From the IMG/VR virus record IMGVR_UViG_3300002307_000203, positions 1 to 26,099 of that record: 26,099 nt of DNA; one strand, given 5' to 3'. Below the pieces are notes generated by a model that was not told the DNA's origin, made no database searches, and worked only from the letters and a program-made list of their open reading frames with translations. The DNA comes from a virus. Lineage: Duplodnaviria > Caudoviricetes. Numbering within the stretch: position 1 is the first letter of the stretch; each line of letters begins with the position of its first letter. The position numbers were made by a program, and so were the translations under genes. Positions 2,308 to 20,491 of the stretch are shown here, piece after piece.

Positions 2308-2703
2308 ATGAAGACGGGATTAGATTATTTCCTCGGTGACGTTCGAAAACTCACCCAGACCAAACCGCCATACAATGAGGCGTTTCTGTCTCGGCTGCTG
2401 AACACGCTTAATACGGCGATCACCATCATCGAGGGGCTAAACGCTATTATCATTAAGCAAAAGCGGGAAGGATTTATTCAACACGTTGTACAAAAACCTG
2501 TTGTGCTGCCTCGAAAAAACAACTACCATGCCACTGGTAAGACGAATGGTTTGGCTGCTTATCGGGAGCGAGTGGCGAAGACTGATCGGAATGACGAGAT
2601 CATTCAGCAGTTCAAGCAGGGGTTCACGAAAACCGAAATCGGTAAAAAGCACCAAATAAGCCAGTCAAGAGTATTCAGCATCCTCAAACGTGCAGGTTTG
2701 TAA
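2308..2703 (+). CDS. DNA-binding protein with C-terminal HTH
   Basis: RNDEIIQQFKQGFTKTEIGKKHQISQSRVFSILK; GAGGTG RBS. Confidence 0.7.
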   Translation: MKTGLDYFLGDVRKLTQTKPPYNEAFLSRLLNTLNTAITIIEGLNAIIIKQKREGFIQHVVQKPVVLPRKNNYHATGKTNGLAAYRERVAKTDRNDEIIQQFKQGFTKTEIGKKHQISQSRVFSILKRAGL

Positions 2704-4205
2704 TGCAACACGAGTTACGGGACTATCAGGAGGCTGCCATTGCCAGCCTCCAATCCTCTATTGCCAATGGCAAGCGGCGCCTGATGCTTCAGATGCCGAC
2801 TGGTGCAGGTAAAACGGCTACTGCTGCCGCTATTATCAAGTCGGCTCTAGGCAATGATAAGCGGGTCATCTTCACGGTCCCTGCGCTCAGCTTGATTACC
2901 CAGACCATCGATAGCTTCAAGCGAGACGGGATCTACGACATTGGCGTGGTGCAGGGTATGCACGAGCTGACCGATGCGTCTGCCAAGGTCCAGATATGCT
3001 CGGTCCAAACCTTGATGCGGCGCAAAATACCACCAGCCGATATGGTCCTGATCGACGAGGCCCATGTCGTCTTTGATATATATAAGCGGTGGTTCGATGA
3101 CCTAGAATGGATAGATATTCCAATCATTGGGCTGTCTGCCACGCCGTGGACCAAAGGATTGGGCAAGCTCTACGACGAGCTAGTGATTGGGACCACAACT
3201 CAGGAGCTGATCGATAGCGAGTTCTTGTCCAAATTCAGGGTGTACGCCCCATCCAAGCCCGACCTCGAAGGCATCAAGACCGTCGCCGGAGATTATGAGA
3301 TGACGGGTTTAGCCAATGCCATGAACAGAGCTGCTTTGGTAGCTGACATTGTCGATACTTGGATTAAACTCGGCGATGATAGGCCGACCATTTGTTTTGC
3401 AGTCAATCGCGCCCATGCTGCCAATATCTGCGACAGTTTTAATAAGGCCAATATACCTGCTGCCTATGTTGATGGTGAGACACCTTTGGACGAGCGCGAC
3501 GAGCTGGCTCAGCAATTCCGAAATGGCGAATACAAAGTCATTTGCAATGTCGGCGTTATGACGACCGGCGTCGACCTGCCATTCGTATCATGTCTGATAT
3601 TAGCTAGGCCGACCAAGAGCGAAATGCTCTACTGCCAAATCGTCGGTCGTGGTCTGCGCATGTTCGGAGGTAAGCAAGATTGCCTGATTTTAGATCATTC
3701 TGACACGACCGCACGTCTCGGGTTCGTGACCGACATTTATCATGGCGTTCTCGATGACGGTAAAAAGAAGATGGGAGGCGGTGACAAACGGGAAAAGCAA
3801 GAGCCTCTGCCGAAGGTCTGCCCAAAATGCACCTACCTGAAGCCAGCCAGAATAAGGATTTGTCCTGCATGCGGGTTCGAAACCATGCCACGGGCGAACG
3901 TCTTTTACGCCGATGGCGATCTGCACGAGGTATCGGGGCGGGGAGGCAATAAGGTCTACAGCGAGGTGATGACGCCGTTCGAGGAAAAAGAACTGTTCTA
4001 TCGGGAGCTGCTTGGCATCTGCGAGGAGCGCAAGTACAAGCAGGGGTGGGCCTATCATCAGTACAAAGACAAATACCATGAGTTCCCCGATAAGATGTTC
4101 ACTCGAGTGCCAGTTATGCCATCCAAGAAGACGATCGGCTGGGTAAAAAACCAATGGATCAGGAAGCGCAGGGCCGAGCAAGCCGTTAATGGTAGCTGGA
4201 AATGA
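2703..4205 (+). CDS. SF2 DEAH-box helicase (RadD/YejH-like) with C-terminal Zn ribbon
   Basis: Q motif LRDYQ, Walker A PTGAGKT, DEAH, SAT, motif VI QIVGRGLR, CPKC..CPAC. Confidence 0.92.
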   Translation: MQHELRDYQEAAIASLQSSIANGKRRLMLQMPTGAGKTATAAAIIKSALGNDKRVIFTVPALSLITQTIDSFKRDGIYDIGVVQGMHELTDASAKVQICSVQTLMRRKIPPADMVLIDEAHVVFDIYKRWFDDLEWIDIPIIGLSATPWTKGLGKLYDELVIGTTTQELIDSEFLSKFRVYAPSKPDLEGIKTVAGDYEMTGLANAMNRAALVADIVDTWIKLGDDRPTICFAVNRAHAANICDSFNKANIPAAYVDGETPLDERDELAQQFRNGEYKVICNVGVMTTGVDLPFVSCLILARPTKSEMLYCQIVGRGLRMFGGKQDCLILDHSDTTARLGFVTDIYHGVLDDGKKKMGGGDKREKQEPLPKVCPKCTYLKPARIRICPACGFETMPRANVFYADGDLHEVSGRGGNKVYSEVMTPFEEKELFYRELLGICEERKYKQGWAYHQYKDKYHEFPDKMFTRVPVMPSKKTIGWVKNQWIRKRRAEQAVNGSWK

Positions 4206-5152
4206 ACGTCATCGAGGATGCTCGGGGTCGATGGGTCGGCCTGATGGATCACTTTGGGCTAAAGCTGCGCCTCAGAAAGCACGGGCCATGCCCTATATGT
4301 GGTGGGAAAGACCGTTTCATTTTCGACGATAAAGAAGGCTTGGGTACGTTCCATTGCAACCATTGCGGCGCAGGGACTGGATTCACTTTGCTAACAAAGG
4401 TTAAGGGTTGGGATATGCGCCAAGCCATGCGTGAGGTAAAATACATTGTCGGGAAGGTCGAAAGGAAAATGGAAACCAAAAAGGAAATTAACGATACCGA
4501 GCGGCGGAAAGCCCTAAACGAAACGTGGTCGGCTGCTCGTCCTGTATCACTTGGCGATCCAGTCCAGAAGTATCTATATGCTCGGACGGGTCTGGTCGAC
4601 GTTCCAACCGTGCTGCGTTTTCATCCGGCTCTGTATCATTCCGACACTCGGTCGGAGCATCCGGCGATGATTGCCAAAATCACTGATTTAGACAACAAGC
4701 CTGTGTCAATTCATAGGACGTACCTCACGGCTGGTGGTGACAAGGCCGCTATCGAGAAGTCAAGGATGCTGATGCAAGGATCGATCCCAGACGGCTCGGC
4801 GATCCGGCTTTTCCCATATCAAGACACGCTCGGCATTGCTGAAGGTATCGAAACCGCGATCTCAGCCTACGCGATCTTTGGCATCCCAACGTGGGCCGCG
4901 ATCAGCGCTGCAATGCTTGTGAAGTGGACGCCGCCTCACATCGTAAGAAAAGTTTATGTTTTTGGCGACAACGACGACAGCCTTACTGGACAGCTCGCAG
5001 CCTATCGGCTAGGCTGGGCGCTCAAAAACAATAAACCCCTCGACGTTGTTCGGGTGATAATACCCGACATCCGTGGGGCAGACTGGAATGACGTTTTAAG
5101 GCTACACGGTTCAACTGAGGCTCGCCTTATGTATAAGGATAAACTGGAATAG
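4202..5152 (+). CDS. DNA primase (P4 alpha-type Zn-binding domain plus TOPRIM)
   Basis: HGPCPICGGKDRF..CNHCGAG; TOPRIM IAEGIETA, GDND, DWND. Confidence 0.9.
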   Translation: MNVIEDARGRWVGLMDHFGLKLRLRKHGPCPICGGKDRFIFDDKEGLGTFHCNHCGAGTGFTLLTKVKGWDMRQAMREVKYIVGKVERKMETKKEINDTERRKALNETWSAARPVSLGDPVQKYLYARTGLVDVPTVLRFHPALYHSDTRSEHPAMIAKITDLDNKPVSIHRTYLTAGGDKAAIEKSRMLMQGSIPDGSAIRLFPYQDTLGIAEGIETAISAYAIFGIPTWAAISAAMLVKWTPPHIVRKVYVFGDNDDSLTGQLAAYRLGWALKNNKPLDVVRVIIPDIRGADWNDVLRLHGSTEARLMYKDKLE

Positions 5153-5182
5153 CTGTCGGGTTTCCCTCCTGTTTCCCGACAG
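5153..5182 (+). ncRNA. Hairpin with anti-Shine-Dalgarno loop (candidate 3'-UTR-derived sRNA)
   Basis: Perfect 8-bp stem CTGTCGGG/CCCGACAG; loop TTTCCCTCCTGTTT. Confidence 0.5.
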
Positions 5183-5183
5183 T

Positions 5184-5227
5184 AAAAGGCCTCGACAGTG
5201 TCCGTGCTGTCGAGGCCAATTTTATTT
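5184..5227. terminator. Probable bidirectional intrinsic terminator
   Basis: 11-bp stem GGCCTCGACAG(5188-5198)/CTGTCGAGGCC(5207-5217), flanked by AAAA and AATTTTATTT, between convergent operons. Confidence 0.8.
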
Positions 5228-5374
5228 CAGTAAGTTCTCAAGCCATTGCGGGATCGGGTGTTGACCGTTAAGCCATCGTCGGACTGTTCTTGGCGTTACT
5301 CCGATCCGTAAGGCAAATGCCGTTCGGGTTTCCCCGTTGGCTTTAAGGATCGTATCAAGCTGTTTTGGTGTCAT
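5222..5374 (-). CDS. Small Cro/XRE-like HTH protein (50 aa; absent from the ORF track)
   Basis: Manual translation MTPKQLDTILKANGETRTAFALRIGVTPRTVRRWLNGQHPIPQWLENLLK*; starts 3 nt after the upstream stop codon. Confidence 0.85.
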   Translation of the reverse strand: MTPKQLDTILKANGETRTAFALRIGVTPRTVRRWLNGQHPIPQWLENLLK

Positions 5375-5377
5375 TAC

Positions 5378-5623
5378 TTAACCTGCATCGATCAGGTTGT
5401 CTTTTTCATCAAAAAGGACATACCGCAATCGCTTTTCTGGCAAGCCAAAGCAGTTTTTGACCTCTGCGATGATTTCCATGGCATCGTATACGGCAGTTTG
5501 GGCAAGGCCTTTGTGGGCCTCGCCATAATCCAACCGAACGGAATAGACTCCTCCGCTCGCGTTCGCCTCTTGATAGCTTCTGTATTGATCTTGGTAGAAT
5601 CCAAGTCTTACACATCCGCCCAT
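5378..5623 (-). CDS. Hypothetical protein
   Basis: 81-aa ORF, TAATG-coupled to the upstream gene, AGGAG RBS. Confidence 0.7.
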   Translation of the reverse strand: MGGCVRLGFYQDQYRSYQEANASGGVYSVRLDYGEAHKGLAQTAVYDAMEIIAEVKNCFGLPEKRLRYVLFDEKDNLIDAG

Positions 5624-6105
5624 TATAATACTCCTATTGAATTCGTGGTTTCGGCTTCAACCTCGAAATTGCTCGGGTCAGCGTCCTCTGGATAATTGAA
5701 GTGAGCAACAAGGTGGGCCATGTCATCGGGTGCGTTGTCAAGATCAGAGCAGCATCGGTCGTCCCCGTCGTTCCAAATGCCGACAAAGAAACCGCCTTCG
5801 TCCCAATAGTCCGCCTTGACCGTATAACCAAGATTTTTCATGCGCTCGAATACTGGAATAGGGGGCGCCCACGCTGTTAAGAATGTTGCCTCCACCATTG
5901 TCGGGCCGTCAAGCGTATATTGTGGGCTGTTTATGTCCCATTTTGTCCCCCAATGTTCGACACACCAGTCGTAATCCCACCCATAGTCAGGCAAAGGAAT
6001 GAAATGTTCGAAGGTCTTTTCCTCTGAAAAGCTGTCGATCAGCTCCGCAATCATCGCAGGGTCGTTGTGGCTTATTGTGGCCGTGTGGCTGCACCAGTTA
6101 GGCAT
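5623..6105 (-). CDS. YubB/DUF1281-like ferredoxin-fold protein
   Basis: Recognisable MPNWC start, WYxW..WGTKW-like segment (YDWCVEHWGTKWD) and F.TAW.PP motif. Confidence 0.75.
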   Translation of the reverse strand: MPNWCSHTATISHNDPAMIAELIDSFSEEKTFEHFIPLPDYGWDYDWCVEHWGTKWDINSPQYTLDGPTMVEATFLTAWAPPIPVFERMKNLGYTVKADYWDEGGFFVGIWNDGDDRCCSDLDNAPDDMAHLVAHFNYPEDADPSNFEVEAETTNSIGVL

Positions 6106-6111
6106 GTTCAG

Positions 6112-6182
6112 TTCTCCTGTTTTCGGTGTCGGAATGACAACCGTGAAGCTGCACCCCGCAGGATGCAGCTAGGCTGTTGTCA
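6112..6182 (-). repeat. Intergenic stem-loop/RBS element, copy 1
   Basis: Minus strand TGACAACAGCCT-AGCTGCATCC-TGCG-GGGTGCAGCT-TCACGGTTGTCA-TTCCGACACCGAAAACAGGAGAA. Confidence 0.92.
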
Positions 6183-6506
6183 CTAAAAAACGTGCGTTCC
6201 GTTAAGGCTGATCGGGCTGTCGGCTTGATAACCAGTTTCGACTGTGACGGGGATAGCCGCCCTCATCGCATCAATCCAGCCGGTCAAATCTTGCATCGCT
6301 CGGTCGAACTCTCCGCGCTTGTATGCCTTCCCAGTGTATTTTGACGCGAGCTTGAACAAATCTGTCGTCGTGGTGTGACGATTAACTCGCAATCCCGCCT
6401 TATGCAGCTTGAGGGCCAGCATGATCGTGATCGCTTGGAACAAGCGTGTTCCGTCCGGTCCATTGAACGAGGCTCCTGTAGGGCCGATCCTGACTTCACT
6501 TTGCAT
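6183..6506 (-). CDS. Hypothetical phage protein
   Basis: 107-aa ORF exactly filling the space between repeat copies 2 and 1; AGGAG RBS. Confidence 0.8.
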   Translation of the reverse strand: MQSEVRIGPTGASFNGPDGTRLFQAITIMLALKLHKAGLRVNRHTTTTDLFKLASKYTGKAYKRGEFDRAMQDLTGWIDAMRAAIPVTVETGYQADSPISLNGTHVF

Positions 6507-6512
6507 TTTTCA

Positions 6513-6578
6513 TTCTCCTGTTTTCGGCCATGTCGACCGCAGGAGCGCACCCCGTAGGATGCGCTCGAACTGTCGTCA
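6513..6578 (-). repeat. Intergenic stem-loop/RBS element, copy 2
   Basis: Minus strand TGACGACAGTTC-GAGCGCATCC-TACG-GGGTGCGCTC-CTGCGGTCGACA-TGGCCGAAAACAGGAGAA. Confidence 0.92.
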
Positions 6579-6920
6579 CGCTGCAATGCCGACTGGCTGC
6601 CTTCTGTCGTCATATTGGACCGCCGCCGTCATCTCGGCCTCGGCCCAAGTTGCTAGGCCGCTTTCCAGTCGGTAGGCGTAATCCGTGGCAACCTCGTTGC
6701 TTTCGTCGTAATTGCAGACCACCTCGAAATAATCGCCGTGATCGTGGCTCTCGCGTTTGATGGTTAGAAAAGCGCCTTCAGGTTCTAGACCGTAAACCTT
6801 CCGCAGAGCCTCGATGTAGGCGTAGCACTCAATTTTGTTGAGACGCTCGGCCCCTTCCGTCACGCCTACTTGAGCGCAAGGCTCATCCGCTGGGCTTGGT
6901 CCAATATAGATATAATCCAT
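6576..6920 (-). CDS. Hypothetical acidic phage protein
   Basis: 114-aa ORF between copies 3 and 2; its TGA stop is the first triplet of copy 2. Confidence 0.8.
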   Translation of the reverse strand: MDYIYIGPSPADEPCAQVGVTEGAERLNKIECYAYIEALRKVYGLEPEGAFLTIKRESHDHGDYFEVVCNYDESNEVATDYAYRLESGLATWAEAEMTAAVQYDDRRQPVGIAA

Positions 6921-6927
6921 TGTTCAA

Positions 6928-6997
6928 TCCTCCTGTTTTCGGTTCCGTCATGGCAACCGCTGAGACGCACCCCGAAGGATGCGCCCTGCTGTTGTCA
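6928..6997 (-). repeat. Intergenic stem-loop/RBS element, copy 3
   Basis: Minus strand TGACAACAGCAG-GGCGCATCC-TTCG-GGGTGCGTC-TCAGCGGTTGCCA-TGACGGAACCGAAAACAGGAGGA. Confidence 0.92.
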
Positions 6998-7465
6998 AAT
7001 CCAAGCCTGTTTCAGAGCATACCCACCGTCACTGTCCGGCTCTCCGTTGCGTGTTCCGTGTGGCTCTGACGTGCCGTGAGGCCAAAGCGCAGCGCCGAGG
7101 CTGTAGACCGTGGCAAAGCCCATATCCATGCCGCAGCCTGTTACGATAAGTCCATCGCCTTTGGCCTGCTTTAAGCCCAGCAATCGCCCGATTGATCCAG
7201 TCAACCACAGCGGTTGATTGTATTTGATGACGTAAAAATCAATGTGGCGGCTCATGCCAGAGGCTGAGACGTGGCGCAAAACAGTGTAAATTGTGTCCTT
7301 CGGGCTGATTAAAAGCAGCAAGTGATCCCGTGCTTGCTCTTTAAGGCGCCGTTTGCCCTCGGTCGAGCTGAGCCGTTTGCCTGTTAAAAACTTCCCGTCA
7401 TAGAGCTGCGGGTTCTGCGTGGTAATAATAGTGCCGAGTTCTAGCTCAATATATGCTTGTTGCAT
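6995..7465 (-). CDS. Hypothetical phage protein (156 aa; start revised to MQQAY)
   Basis: ATG at 7465 follows the AGGAG of copy 4; the track start at 7510 lies inside the repeat; motifs VSASGMSR, GCGMDMGF. Confidence 0.8.
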   Translation of the reverse strand: MQQAYIELELGTIITTQNPQLYDGKFLTGKRLSSTEGKRRLKEQARDHLLLLISPKDTIYTVLRHVSASGMSRHIDFYVIKYNQPLWLTGSIGRLLGLKQAKGDGLIVTGCGMDMGFATVYSLGAALWPHGTSEPHGTRNGEPDSDGGYALKQAWI

Positions 7466-7470
7466 CGTCG

Positions 7471-7542
7471 TTCTCCTGTTTCCGGTCATAGCAACCGTGG
7501 GAACAGGCAAGGGTTGCGCCTCACCCGTTCAAGCTGTCGCTA
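7471..7542 (-). repeat. Intergenic stem-loop/RBS element, copy 4
   Basis: Minus strand TAGCGACAGCTT-GAACGGGTGAGG-CGCAAC-CCTTGCCTGTTC-CCACGGTTGCTA-TGACCGGAAACAGGAGAA. Confidence 0.9.
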
Positions 7543-7905
7543 CTTGATTTTCTTGGCGATCCAGTGGTTGAAAGTGTTTCTCGCGCCGTCTAAATCACGG
7601 TCGGCCTCATCGCCTCGCCATTTGCGCCAATCGTCGGCGAAGGCCAAAGGGATCATGCACCAATCGCAATCTTCCTCAAACCAGCCGTCTCGACCTTGGC
7701 CGTGGAAGGTCGCATCAAGCCACGCTTGCGGCATTGTCCGTCTGCGTTCGGCTGAGACATAAAAGCCACCATGCCGAGGGGTTGAGAGGGACCAGACGCC
7801 GTTGAATATCTGTTCGGCGTGGTCTGGCGCGCCCCATGGCGTCCACTGTGGCCGAGCGATGGGTTGAAACGTGCGCGGCATGTCGATTGTCAATTCTGCT
7901 TGCAT
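7540..7905 (-). CDS. DUF7007-like protein (121 aa; start revised to MQAEL)
   Basis: TPWG..ST..HGG..WFEEDCDW pattern; ATG at 7905 follows the AGGAG of copy 5. Confidence 0.7.
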   Translation of the reverse strand: MQAELTIDMPRTFQPIARPQWTPWGAPDHAEQIFNGVWSLSTPRHGGFYVSAERRRTMPQAWLDATFHGQGRDGWFEEDCDWCMIPLAFADDWRKWRGDEADRDLDGARNTFNHWIAKKIK

Positions 7906-7910
7906 CTGTT

Positions 7911-7982
7911 TTCTCCTGTTATCGGTTCCGAATGGCAACCGGTGGAAGGCTGGACATTGCGCCAGCCTTCGGCCTGTTGTCA
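7911..7982 (-). repeat. Intergenic stem-loop/RBS element, copy 5
   Basis: Minus strand TGACAACAGGCC-GAAGGCTGG-CGCAATGT-CCAGCCTTC-CACCGGTTGCCA-TTCGGAACCGATAACAGGAGAA. Confidence 0.9.
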
Positions 7983-8138
7983 CTTTTCAGCGTTAAGAAC
8001 CGCATCTTGAGCGCTTTTAATCAATCCTTCGAGGTGGCAGCCTATGCCAGCCCAGACGACGAACACTTGAAGATTACCAACGCCGTAGCGTTCCGCTCGG
8101 CCTTCTTTCCCGTCCACCGTAAATTTCCAGACTTTCAT
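7980..8138 (-). CDS. Small hypothetical protein (52 aa; absent from the ORF track)
   Basis: MKVWKFTVDGKEGRAERYGVGNLQVFVVWAGIGCHLEGLIKSAQDAVLNAEK*; GAGGAG RBS, ATGA overlap, stop codon is the start of copy 5. Confidence 0.8.
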   Translation of the reverse strand: MKVWKFTVDGKEGRAERYGVGNLQVFVVWAGIGCHLEGLIKSAQDAVLNAEK

Positions 8139-8416
8139 TGCGTGATCTCCTCTAGGATAATGTCGGCCTCAACGACTAGGAAAGTGTAGGTCGAGCAATC
8201 GGCTGCATAAGGGTAAAAGCTGAAGGCGTCGTGGTAGTGAATAAATCCGGCGTCTTCGGCATCGGTGCAGCTCAGGTTCGGCTCGTTTTTGGCAAGCCAG
8301 TCGTGAAATTGATCGGCTGCCTTGATCTCGTCGTCTTCGAGGCCTGAGGCATCGCCGTTAATGTAGTAAGACGCCCAGTAGCTGGGCGCTGTCACGGTAA
8401 AGGTCTTTATTGCCAT
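8135..8416 (-). CDS. Small acidic hypothetical protein, first gene of the leftward operon
   Basis: 93 aa, CAGGAG RBS, motif WASYYINGDASGLEDDEI. Confidence 0.8.
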   Translation of the reverse strand: MAIKTFTVTAPSYWASYYINGDASGLEDDEIKAADQFHDWLAKNEPNLSCTDAEDAGFIHYHDAFSFYPYAADCSTYTFLVVEADIILEEITQ

Positions 8417-8429
8417 TGTTCATCTCCTG

Positions 8430-8501
8430 CTAGGACGTTGCGTCCTGTGCATACTAGGACGGTGCGTCCGTCTTGCTGTCAACTCTTTTTTTTAGTATAG
8501 T
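8430..8501. promoter_or_regulatory. Divergent promoter region with twin operator-like palindromes
   Basis: CTAGGACG(T/G)TGCGTCC at 8430-8445 and 8454-8469; minus TTGACA(8482-8477)-N20-TAGTAT(8456-8451); plus TTGCTG(8473-8478)-N17-TATAGT(8496-8501). Confidence 0.65.
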
Positions 8502-9299: not shown

Positions 9300-9335
9300 G
9301 GACGTGGCGTCATCTCTGGATAGGACGTGCCGTCC
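9300..9335. promoter_or_regulatory. Second pair of GGACG-N3-CGTCM palindromes
   Basis: GGACGTGGCGTCA (9300-9312) and GGACGTGCCGTCC (9323-9335). Confidence 0.6.
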
Positions 9336-10857: not shown

Positions 10858-11131
10858 TTTTATTGACGGCGGCAACATTAATTGGGCCAACCAGTCTGAT
10901 GGGAAAGATACCCAAACTCAAATTGGAAACCTTATGGCATCCGGTGGCATGGCCCCAATGCTACAACCAACAATGAATCAGCAACTCAATATGGCCCATG
11001 GTGGCCATGTTGACCATCTTGAGCAAATGGGACCGGAAGGTTTGATCTCCATGATCCGGGAAGAATTTAGGAAGCGCGGATTGGATTTTGATCGGTACAT
11101 GGCTCACCGGATGTCCCATTCCCGCAAATGA
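10847..11131 (+). CDS. Hypothetical protein with MAxGG motifs
   Basis: 94 aa, overlaps both neighbours; MASGG and MAHGG. Confidence 0.7.
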   Translation: MQSDFIDGGNINWANQSDGKDTQTQIGNLMASGGMAPMLQPTMNQQLNMAHGGHVDHLEQMGPEGLISMIREEFRKRGLDFDRYMAHRMSHSRK

Positions 11132-11520
11132 TTAAAGATATATTGGCCTTGATGAACCAATCCAAACTCCACAAGAAGTGGTATGTCGAGGATGTGTTCA
11201 ACATTATACTTCCCCCAATTGAAAATGGTCAGTGCATCATTGTTCGGGAAGAGAACAAAATTGTCGGTTTTGGAACATGGGCATATATGAGTAATTCCTC
11301 ATTGGATGATTTTTTAAATGGAAAACGCAAGATTAATCCTCAAGACTTTAACAGCGGAAATAATATTGCATTGGTAGATATTATAGCTCCCTACGGCCAT
11401 GGGAAAGAGATTGCTTTCAAAATACGCCACCGTCTGGTAGAACTGGGCCATTGGGGAAAGAAGATTAAATACGTTCGGTATTACCAAGGTAAGAAGGTCC
11501 AAAAGGAATCTCTGTTATGA
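11128..11520 (+). CDS. RTX toxin-activating lysine acyltransferase (HlyC/RtxC family)-like protein
   Basis: N-terminal SKLH (family Ser/His motif), ILPPI..GQ, WAYM, FNSG..LVDIIAPYGH. Confidence 0.85.
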   Translation: MIKDILALMNQSKLHKKWYVEDVFNIILPPIENGQCIIVREENKIVGFGTWAYMSNSSLDDFLNGKRKINPQDFNSGNNIALVDIIAPYGHGKEIAFKIRHRLVELGHWGKKIKYVRYYQGKKVQKESLL

Positions 11521-16117: not shown

Positions 16118-16352
16118 TTTTCCACTAATTGAGCGGGTGCTCATTGCGCTTAAGAAAGAGCAAAGAGAATTTGCAGAAAGTGCGATGAGCCACCCTGCAC
16201 ACCGAGACGCCTTTGAGTATGGGCGTGTGACCGGACATTATTCCGGGTTGATGAAAGCCGTTGAGACCATCGAAATGGCTTTGAATAAAGAGAGCGAGGA
16301 CGACGATCATGGTTACAAACGCCGTGGTGATTCCTTCATTATCAGAGATTGA
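16101..16352 (+). CDS. Small helical hypothetical protein
   Basis: 83 aa between portal and the GroES-like gene; start uncertain. Confidence 0.65.
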
Positions 16353-16734
16353 TGAAGCGTTTCCAAATGTAGACTTTGGTATTAAGCCAACCGGATCAAG
16401 GGTTTTGGTCCAAATCCGTAGGCCAAAGACCAAAATTGGGAGTATTATCCTTTCGGACTATACAAAGGATGCTGAACAAGACAATACGCAGGTAGCAAAA
16501 GTAGTATCTGTCGGACCACTGGCTTTTCGGAATCGGAACACAATGGATTTATGGCCAGAAGGGGCGTGGTACAAAGAAGGTGACTTTGTCTTCGTTTCGA
16601 AGTATGGTGGTGCAAGATGGCGCCGGGATATTCCCGGTTCTAAGGGAGAAAAGGTTGAGTTCGTTATCTTTAACGACCTTGATATTGTTGGCACGGTTGA
16701 AGCGGACCCTCTTTCCGTTCAAGCCTATATCTGA
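16309..16734 (+). CDS. GroES/Cpn10-like co-chaperonin
   Basis: IKPTGSRVLV, IIL, AKVVSVGP, GDFVFVSKYGG, FNDLDIVG. Confidence 0.85.
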   Translation: MVTNAVVIPSLSEIDEAFPNVDFGIKPTGSRVLVQIRRPKTKIGSIILSDYTKDAEQDNTQVAKVVSVGPLAFRNRNTMDLWPEGAWYKEGDFVFVSKYGGARWRRDIPGSKGEKVEFVIFNDLDIVGTVEADPLSVQAYI

Positions 16735-19801: not shown

Positions 19802-20491
19802 ATGCCAGAGAAATGTCACGTTCATAACTGCGTCGCACAGGCCGTTTCACATGGCCTGTGCGATACTCATAGAAAACGTCTTTCCCGTCATGGGACATTA
19901 GAAAATACTCGCCCTAACGATTGGGGTAAGCGGGAAAAACATCCACTATACAAATCTTGGTGTGGTTTAATCCGCCATCATAAATTTAACATTCCTAAAG
20001 AATGGCATGATTTTTGGAAATTTGTTAAATCTGTTCCAGAAAAACCAAGTCAAAAAGCAAAAGTATATAGGCCAGATAAATCCCAACCTTGGGGCTTAAA
20101 CAATTTTTTTTGGAAGGAAACAAAATTATCTAACGAGGCTTTAGAAAGCCGCGCAGTTTATATGAGAGAGTACCAACGCAAAAAACGTATGTACAATAAA
20201 GATTATGGCAAAAACTCTGATCTTAAAAAGAATTACGGCGTCGATCTTGATTGGTTTAACCGTCAATTTGGCCTTCAAAATGGTGTATGTGCTATTTGTA
20301 AGCAGCCAGAAACAACTGTGATTAAAGGAAGAACAATATCTCTTTCAGTGGATCATTGTCATGATACGGGATTGGTTCGTGAGCTTTTATGTCGTGGGTG
20401 CAATAATTCTATAGGTCATTTTAAACATGACCCCACCCTCCTCCAATCAGCAATGGACTATCTTAAAAAACATGGGGATGGGACTAGCTAA
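19802..20491 (+). CDS. Free-standing endonuclease VII-type (His-Me finger) putative homing endonuclease
   Basis: YGV..QNGVCAIC..LSVDHCHDTGLVRELLCRGCN..G; N-terminal C-x4-C..GLCxxH; visibly AT-richer than its neighbours. Confidence 0.85.
   Translation: MPEKCHVHNCVAQAVSHGLCDTHRKRLSRHGTLENTRPNDWGKREKHPLYKSWCGLIRHHKFNIPKEWHDFWKFVKSVPEKPSQKAKVYRPDKSQPWGLNNFFWKETKLSNEALESRAVYMREYQRKKRMYNKDYGKNSDLKKNYGVDLDWFNRQFGLQNGVCAICKQPETTVIKGRTISLSVDHCHDTGLVRELLCRGCNNSIGHFKHDPTLLQSAMDYLKKHGDGTS

What the first reader, a model, noticed from the sequence alone, without database searches (positions are those of the whole stretch)
6112..7982. Array of single-gene cassettes punctuated by five covarying ~70-nt RNA stem-loops running from stop codon to RBS
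Seen: five consecutive junctions (6112-6182, 6513-6578, 6928-6997, 7471-7542, 7911-7982) share, on the coding strand, TRRCRACAG-N3-[inner hairpin]-N3-4-CGGTYGHYAT-N-CCGRWAACAGGAG-N-ATG. In four copies the first triplet is the upstream stop codon; in the fifth it directly follows the stop. Structure is conserved while sequence changes: the outer stem varies TGACAAC/GTTGTCA, TAGCGAC/GTTGCTA, CGAC/GTCG. Inner stems differ but stay paired, with G-U wobbles valid on the mRNA strand. Copies 1-3 have C(UNCG)G tetraloops (UGCG, UACG, UUCG); copies 4-5 have GGCGCAA. No U-tract follows, so they are not intrinsic terminators. Inference: processing or stabilising elements that split the polycistron (compare T7 early RNase III sites), protein-binding elements, and/or recombination joints for cassette shuffling (compare T4-type PeSL elements). 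I do not recognise the motif as described.
Basis: partly seen in the sequence, partly recalled or inferred. Interest (0 to 1): 0.9.

Follow-up and report, generated by a model that had tools for sequence, protein, structure and literature searches.

The report
Phage mRNA cut-and-cap hairpins
An uncultured freshwater phage separates five small genes with copies of one folded RNA hairpin, at junctions where related phages carry hammerhead-ribozyme sequences instead; the hairpin is likely a cut site for the host enzyme RNase III that would split the long message into end-protected single-gene pieces, and close strains gain, lose and reorder genes at these copies.

Summary
The five elements are real (5 matches, 0 in 100 shuffles), covary, and have no Rfam match. 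They lie in a phage accessory operon. In 12 related operons (terminase 72-93% identical), junctions carry this hairpin (25) or a type II hammerhead (21), never both. Genes C, E, F and G follow a hairpin in some phages and a hammerhead in others. The hairpin is a 10+2+10 bp helix, the size of an RNase III substrate. An A-U pair at proximal-box position 2 holds in 7 of 9 sequence clusters. Best reading: RNase III processing sites leaving hairpin-capped mRNA ends (about 60%); no RNA data exist to show cleavage. Close strains gain, lose or reorder cassettes at the elements, probably as a by-product of repeat homology. attC, PeSL and terminator tests fail; no catalytic core is conserved. This scan noted the same kind of element in other phage genomes before. 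Verdict: new variant of a known kind.

The parts
7913..7982 (-). Junction hairpin c5 (gene B stop to gene C RBS); predicted downstream product starts at 7941, competing hairpin 7941-7923, SD 7917-7913
   Evidence: cut position inferred from the T7 R1.1 register
7473..7542 (-). Junction hairpin c4 (C stop to D RBS); predicted product starts at 7497, competing hairpin to 7483
6930..6997 (-). Junction hairpin c3 (D stop to E RBS); predicted product starts at 6959, competing hairpin to 6940
   Evidence: strain insertions and joins map here
6515..6578 (-). Junction hairpin c2 (E stop to F RBS); predicted product starts at 6539, competing hairpin to 6525
6114..6182 (-). Junction hairpin c1 (directly after F stop, to G RBS); upper helix 6170-6147, predicted product starts at 6143, competing hairpin to 6124
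8135..8416 (-). Gene A, 93 aa, DUF6926; first gene of the operon
7980..8138 (-). Gene B, 52 aa, no family; overlaps the stop of A (no element)
7540..7905 (-). Gene C, 121 aa, DUF7007
6995..7465 (-). Gene D, 156 aa, phrog_12365 (unknown function)
6576..6920 (-). Gene E, 114 aa, no family
6183..6506 (-). Gene F, 107 aa, no family; missing with one element in close strains
5623..6105 (-). Gene G, 160 aa, phrog_20518; look-alike of clusters in which about 30% of members carry DUF1281_C
5378..5623 (-). Gene H, 81 aa, no family (no element before it in the window; a hammerhead before it in L005)
5222..5374 (-). Stand-alone 50-aa HTH gene closing the operon, likely its repressor
   Evidence: Pfam HTH_3 E=4e-5; repressor role inferred
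5188..5217 (.). Bidirectional intrinsic-terminator-like hairpin ending the operon
8433..8469 (.). Two palindromes GGACG-N3-CGTCC in the leader, likely operators for the HTH protein
   Evidence: similar palindromes in the leaders of L011, L005, L008, L013; function inferred

Best explanation
The five elements are conserved two-turn RNA hairpins at gene junctions of a phage accessory operon, and they are likely host RNase III processing sites that would cut the long message into single-gene mRNAs with a hairpin on each new end. Shown: a 10-bp lower helix with mismatches that starts at the stop codon, a 2x2 unpaired centre, a 10-bp upper helix, and a second helix that competes for the 3' strand of the lower helix; hammerhead sequences in the same slots of relatives; strain differences in gene content that break at the elements. 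Inferred: (1) RNase III nicks the 3' side of the internal loop, within about 1 nt of the C of CGGU, as at T7 R1.1; (2) the upstream mRNA keeps the upper helix as a 3' cap against exonucleases; (3) the weakened lower helix comes apart and the downstream mRNA refolds into the competing hairpin, a 5' cap ending 5 nt before the Shine-Dalgarno sequence; (4) a ribosome at the stop codon would melt the lower helix and may gate the cut; (5) as near-identical repeats, the elements also act as crossover points for gain, loss and reordering of cassettes, without a dedicated recombinase.
For: Slot swap: 12 operons hold 25 hairpins and 21 hammerheads, no junction has both, and genes C, E, F and G follow either kind. 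L005, terminase 90% identical, has 8 hammerheads and no hairpin. Rfam Hammerhead_II scores two of the L013 copies at E=0.004 and 0.012, below the gathering score. Geometry over 31 copies from 14 contigs: upper-helix positions paired in 26-31 of 31, centre positions in 6 of 29 and 2 of 29; two helical turns and a nick at an internal loop are the described RNase III features (PMC1540722, PMC3867540). The same layout appears at T7 R0.3, R0.5, R1 and R1.1. Register test: with the cut taken from R1.1, the product starts with a paired base in 28 of 31; the count is the same 1 nt downstream, 8 of 31 1 nt upstream and 0 of 31 2 nt upstream. Competing helix of 4 bp or more in 29 of 31, against 51% of 696 swapped tails, with four Watson-Crick types at its first pair. 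Distal-box U.G in 4 of 5 window copies and 12 of 31 (background 6.8%); A-U/U-A at proximal-box position 2 in 21 of 31 (background 23.5%) and 7 of 9 clusters, where no other upper position exceeds 3 of 9. Upper helices hold 38 G.U and 0 A.C on the mRNA strand.
Against: No RNA end, cleavage or expression was observed. E. coli rules fit only in part: the inhibitory G-C/C-G at proximal-box position 2 occurs in 2 of 5 window copies and 8 of 31, the preferred pair at position 1 in 1 of 5 and 10 of 31, at position 3 in 1 of 5 and 3 of 31. Mapped double-cut sites in B. subtilis and E. coli are mostly paired next to the cut (PMC11780869), whereas these have mismatches there; PMC1540722 notes helix defects that allow binding without cleavage. 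The lower helices carry 17 A.C against 26 G.U, and only 20 of 31 hairpins fold better on the mRNA strand. Against shuffled tails only 3 of 31 competing hairpins reach p<0.05 alone. The 31 copies were picked by eye, 12 were shifted by hand to align the central mismatch, and they are related, so counts are not independent. The host is unknown, and S. meliloti RNase III needs longer helices (PMC6121014).
Confidence: 0.62

Rival explanations
1. No cut is made. The element is a two-state structure flipped by the terminating ribosome, which tunes translational coupling or blocks nucleases travelling along the message.
For: The two folds lie within 3 kcal/mol in 14 of 31 copies (median gap 3.5); the stop codon forms or directly precedes the base of the lower helix in all five window copies.
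Against: Neither helix includes the Shine-Dalgarno sequence in the window copies. An element also precedes the first gene, with no upstream ribosome, in L011. It does not explain the fixed 10+2+10 geometry, the A-U preference at one position or the exchange with hammerheads.
Confidence: 0.15
2. The hairpin is a new small self-cleaving RNA, or the target of a nuclease other than RNase III, doing the hammerhead's job.
For: It occupies hammerhead slots; hatchet, pistol and twister-sister were found near ribozyme-associated genes (method described in PMC5737381; class names recalled); recurring A.G and A.C mismatches in the lower helix.
Against: No nucleotide is invariant across 31 copies (best 28 of 31), the unpaired centre varies freely, and the fold is a plain hairpin. 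No phage RNase III homolog in 5 relatives, one of them complete.
Confidence: 0.1
3. The elements are chiefly DNA recombination sites (attC-like or PeSL-like) for cassette shuffling, and RNA folding is incidental.
For: Strain differences break at elements: loss of F, an insertion of 385 bases at c3, a join from A to c3, E followed by D, and D followed by another gene. L011 has the order F,A,D,C against A,B,C,D,E,F. The 7 bp arm plus 5 nt spacer resembles attC geometry (recalled).
Against: attC R'' and R' consensus 0 of 31 each; no extrahelical bases; upper-helix wobbles fit the coding strand; no tyrosine recombinase in 5 relatives. Adjacency is kept in 7 of 37 comparisons at elements and 9 of 23 without (p=0.13). 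Hammerhead-only L005 is shuffled too.
Confidence: 0.06
4. The hairpins are RNA sites for the operon's HTH protein, which would repress translation of each gene as reported for Aca2 (recalled).
For: A stand-alone HTH gene closes the operon and palindromes lie in the leader.
Against: L005 and L013 keep the HTH (76% and 70% identical) and the palindrome with 0 and 1 hairpins; upper-helix sequences vary within one genome.
Confidence: 0.04

Closest known systems
RNase III processing sites of the phage T7 early mRNA (R0.3, R0.5, R1, R1.1, R1.3)
   Same: Intergenic sites in a small-gene operon; 9-10 bp upper helix closed by a short loop above an internal loop in four of the five; U.G near the top followed by A-U in R0.3, R1 and R1.1; R0.5 starts at a stop codon; the R1.1 product also begins with a 7-bp hairpin.
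   Different: Different sequence family (the covariance model does not hit T7); symmetric 2x2 centre instead of the 4/5 loop; a competing 5' hairpin in nearly all copies but in only 1 of the 3 T7 sites I could register; near-identical repeats that are exchanged with hammerheads and mark gene gain and loss.
Clustered hammerhead ribozymes flanking single genes in prophage operons (Perreault et al. 2011, PMC3088659; Rfam RF02276)
   Same: Same position and proposed job: processing long phage transcripts into single-gene mRNAs. Relatives of this phage carry 21 such type II hammerheads in the same slots.
   Different: The window's elements have no hammerhead core (0 by descriptor) and would need a protein to cut; RNase III leaves a 5' monophosphate, a hammerhead a 5' hydroxyl.
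PeSL cassettes of T4-type phages (Arbiol et al. 2010, PMC2839356)
   Same: Repeated intergenic stem-loop cassettes in a variable region, at which genes are inserted, deleted and replaced.
   Different: PeSLs are a sigma-70 promoter plus a terminator; these elements have neither. Mini-circles were not testable here.
Integron attC sites
   Same: One hairpin between each pair of single-gene cassettes, starting at the stop codon.
   Different: No R''/R' consensus, no extrahelical bases, folding bias on the coding strand, no integrase.

Membership tests
T7-type RNase III processing site | About two helical turns with roughly 11 bp on one side of the cut | tested here: met
   10+2+10 register in 31 copies; requirement from PMC1540722
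T7-type RNase III processing site | Internal loop at the target site limiting the cut to one strand | tested here: met
   Centre paired in only 6 of 29 and 2 of 29 (partly circular for 12 hand-shifted copies)
T7-type RNase III processing site | Distal-box U.G and proximal-box A-U preferences | tested here: inconclusive
   U.G 12 of 31, position-2 A-U 21 of 31 and 7 of 9 clusters; inhibitory G-C in 8 of 31; positions 1 and 3 poorly matched
T7-type RNase III processing site | Folds on the mRNA strand between genes | tested here: met
   Upper helices 38 G.U vs 0 A.C; whole hairpin favours the sense strand in only 20 of 31
T7-type RNase III processing site | Cleavage by RNase III with 5' monophosphate ends | not testable with these tools
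   No RNA run holds the stretch
Hammerhead ribozyme | CUGANGA / GAAA / NUH core on three stems | tested here: not met
   0 in the window by descriptor and Rfam; met by 21 junctions in relatives
Other Rfam families (twister, pistol, hatchet, RAGATH and the rest) | Score at or near the family's gathering threshold | tested here: not met
   3 matches at E 2.4-9, far below threshold; Rfam at gathering level also missed the hammerheads of relatives, so a blank is weak
Integron attC | R'' RYYYAAC and R' GTTRRRY boxes (consensus recalled) | tested here: not met
   0 of 31 each; AAC/GTT alone in 8 of 31
Integron attC | Extrahelical bases and bottom-strand folding | tested here: not met
   Unbroken upper helix and coding-strand wobbles
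Integron attC | Integrase in the element or host | tested here: inconclusive
   PF00589 absent from 5 relatives, only one complete; host unknown
PeSL | Sigma-70 promoter plus terminator stem-loop in each cassette | tested here: not met
   No promoter-like or terminator-like call at any of the five elements
PeSL | Exchange between copies changes gene content | tested here: met
   Five strain differences break at elements

The most novel reading that the evidence does not exclude
The hairpin is a new, very small self-cleaving RNA that phages swap one-for-one with hammerheads, cutting at the base of the competing hairpin and gated by the ribosome that stops on its first three bases.
Probability: 0.06. 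Interest if true: 0.9.

Novelty: new variant of a known kind. Interest (0 to 1): 0.5.

Why it matters
The purpose of the many hammerheads found between phage genes is still open (PMC6765202 says so). Here closely related phages fill the same junction, before the same gene, with either a hammerhead or a protein-cut hairpin of matching design: both start at the stop codon, would leave a hairpin on each new end, and mostly carry a competing helix that would strip the products apart. That natural swap makes the question testable by exchanging the two modules in one reporter. It also predicts a cut site to within a base. The mechanism itself resembles T7 early processing, so the surprise is moderate.

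Tried and rejected
No RNA holder listed; all 8 runs laid were DNA contigs, so no RNA ends or circles could be seen. Two joins in run X5 with 31-base sides and the terminator replacement were not counted. Strict pattern scan of viral contigs: 2 contigs. Relaxed pattern: 65 stretches, of which 5 were real and all in the terminase clade. Primase scan gave 1 locus and gene E scan none. Gene D scans gave 66 viral and 80 metagenome loci; most carry neither this hairpin family nor hammerheads near D (7 of 193 junctions scored as hammerhead), and differently shaped hairpins there (L182, L183, L248, L254) were left out of the counts. blastn of copy 1 against cultured phages gave 3 chance pieces. Prokaryote genomes held no close prophage (best 27-28% terminase identity). 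Cultured Caulobacter phage RW (terminase 53.5%) shares none of genes A-H and has no hammerhead in the stretch read. NCBIfam and PADLOC name none of the cassette genes. The 'SD free in state 1' column is fixed by the constraint and is not used. Intrinsic terminator, attC, PeSL membership and HTH binding were considered and rejected as above. Ten literature searches listed no paper describing this motif or a hairpin-hammerhead exchange; the library lacks most subscription papers, including the T7 primary papers, and I did not open supplements of Weinberg 2017 or Perreault 2011, where a similar motif could be listed.

Full report
Setting. The window is a fragment of an uncultured tailed phage: helicase and primase at 2703-5152, terminase, portal and capsid genes from 8910 on. 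G000 is the window alone. The four runs that hold the whole stretch are freshwater metagenomes and may be its source. The nearest cultured terminases are those of Caulobacter phages RW, RLK, KcrB and GB2A at 53.5%, which hints at an alphaproteobacterial host but does not show it. Between primase and terminase lies a minus-strand operon: A, B, [c5], C, [c4], D, [c3], E, [c2], F, [c1], G, H, a 50-aa HTH gene and a terminator. An early role is inferred from the layout.

The motif occurs five times against none in 100 shuffles, and a covariance model finds no sixth copy on that strand. Covariation is strong: 11 of 18 pairs change on both sides in 9 sequences aligned by MAFFT and 17 of 18 in 21 model-fitted sequences (fitted, so biased). 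Rfam has no match, but at gathering level it also missed the hammerheads described next, so this blank is weak.

What relatives put in the same slot. A terminase scan kept 80 of 330 loci; 24 were 72% identical or more. Twelve operons (the window and 11 of these loci, chosen as non-redundant and long enough) were annotated. They hold 25 curated hairpins (two more turned up later) and 21 type II hammerheads with canonical cores, 20 with GUC and one with GUA at the cut. Rfam supports two of the five in L013 at E=0.004 and 0.012. No junction holds both kinds. Gene C follows a hairpin twice and a hammerhead once, E twice and three times, F three times and once, G once and twice. L005, with a terminase 90% identical, has eight hammerheads and no hairpin. 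Perreault et al. 2011 (PMC3088659, passages read) describe clustered hammerheads flanking single prophage genes, active in vitro, and propose processing to single-gene mRNAs. The slot is therefore most simply an RNA-cutting slot; that is inference from position.

Anatomy. I picked 31 hairpins from 14 contigs by eye and laid them in a gapless register; 12 were shifted by hand to align the central mismatch and two have a one-base gap. Positions 1-10 form a lower helix with recurring mismatches (A.G at position 8 in 18 of 29; A.C at position 3 in 12 of 31), positions 11-12 are mostly unpaired, and positions 13-22 form an unbroken upper helix. Upper helices hold 38 G.U pairs and no A.C, so they are selected on the mRNA strand. 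The lower helices are mixed (26 G.U, 17 A.C), and copy 5 folds better on the other strand.

RNase III register. Pertzev and Nicholson (PMC1540722, parts 1-3 of 7 read) define an 11-bp minimal helix, a distal box with U.G and a proximal box whose second position rejects G-C. Taggart et al. (PMC11780869, passages) find similar preferences in B. subtilis. Nicholson's review (PMC3867540, passages) states that loops at the target site limit cleavage to one strand and leave stabilising 3' hairpins. Saramago et al. (PMC6121014, passages; author name recalled) give 47- and 13-nt products for R1.1, a 3'-side cut. In the T7 record the rule 'cut 10 nt 3' of the G of the top U.G pair' gives 890, 3138 and 5887 for R0.3, R1 and R1.1, matching positions that I recall from Dunn and Studier 1983; no call confirms those numbers, and the rule picks the wrong pair for R0.5 and R1.3. 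Applied here, the U.G sits at the distal-box position in 4 of 5 window copies and 12 of 31, and A-U/U-A at proximal position 2 in 21 of 31 and 7 of 9 clusters. The other proximal positions fit poorly, and 8 of 31 carry the inhibitory pair.

The competing hairpin. The predicted cut falls just before CGGU. The RNA from there starts with a paired base in 28 of 31 copies, against 0 of 31 two bases upstream. It is 4 bp or longer in 29 of 31, against 51% of swapped tails; the shuffle control is weak per copy (3 of 31 at p<0.05). It ends 5 nt before the Shine-Dalgarno sequence in all five window copies. The hammerheads mirror this: 20 of 21 products start with a paired base and 14 of 21 have a downstream segment that can pair with the core. 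T7 R1.1 has such a hairpin; R0.3 and R1 do not. My model: nick, release helped by the mismatches and the competing helix, and a hairpin on both new ends. The two folds are near in energy, so a ribosome at the stop codon could shift the balance. All of this is untested.

Shuffling. Contigs of close strains from other studies show five differences in gene content, each breaking in or beside an element: loss of F with one element (runs X5, X8, X10 of one study and X7 of another), 385 extra bases at c3 (X8), A joined to c3 (X7), E followed by D (X10) and D followed by another gene through a hybrid element (X6). These are assembled contigs, several of low depth. Across the 12 operons adjacency is kept in 7 of 37 comparisons at elements and 9 of 23 elsewhere (p=0.13), and no tyrosine recombinase was found in 5 relatives. 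I read this as exchange between similar repeats, as for PeSLs (PMC2839356, abstract read), not as the primary function.

Novelty. The sequence family is uncatalogued and clade-restricted. The kind of signal is known from T7. Weinberg 2017 (PMC5737381) and the ribozyme review PMC6765202 were read as passages and PMC5371410 as two passages; the other papers were seen only in search listings. Ten searches listed no paper on this motif or on hairpin-hammerhead exchange. Earlier notes of this scan describe the same kind of element in other phage genomes; my RNase III reading and the competing hairpin were recorded before I saw them, and I did not check their DNA. Verdict: real, conserved, likely RNase III cut-and-cap sites; new variant of a known kind; interest 0.5.

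Noticed in passing
L005:2001-5202, L013:4030-6617 and seven other loci (minus strand): 21 type II hammerhead sequences at stop-to-RBS junctions, none reaching Rfam's gathering score; 14 have a downstream segment able to pair with the CUGA core, a possible product-release or timer helix.
   Followed up: partly
window 9323-9335: A third GGACG-N3-CGTCC palindrome between the small and large terminase genes, with similar palindromes at the same place in L011, L005 and L008; the HTH protein may also control packaging genes.
   Followed up: no
leaders of L011, L005, L013, L021 and L012: A boxA-like motif (GCT[G/C]TTT..CATCG; boxA resemblance recalled) after the operon leader, as T7 has before R0.3; absent from the window and L008.
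   Followed up: partly
L013:7060-7200 and L012:1820-1960 (minus strand): A longer two-hairpin leader before the first gene, shared by these two phages and different from both the hairpin and the hammerhead.
   Followed up: no
L019:9270-9347: CyVA-1 RNA match above the Rfam gathering score (E=2.7e-7) upstream of the terminase.
   Followed up: no
window 5160-5185 (minus strand): A short hairpin after the terminator with an ACAGGAG-containing loop, echoing the element tail; also present in L002 and L008 in similar form.
   Followed up: no
window 11128-11520, 16309-16734, 19802-20491: An HlyC-family acyltransferase gene after the terminase, a GroES-like gene and an endonuclease VII gene behind the major capsid gene.
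   Followed up: no
L183:456-2320, L248, L182, L254: Other stop-anchored long hairpins of different sequence around gene D homologs in distant phages; five in a row in L183.
   Followed up: no
L306:3430-3506 (Caulobacter phage RW): One stop-anchored hairpin with a competing downstream helix in a cultured phage; a possible test case.
   Followed up: partly
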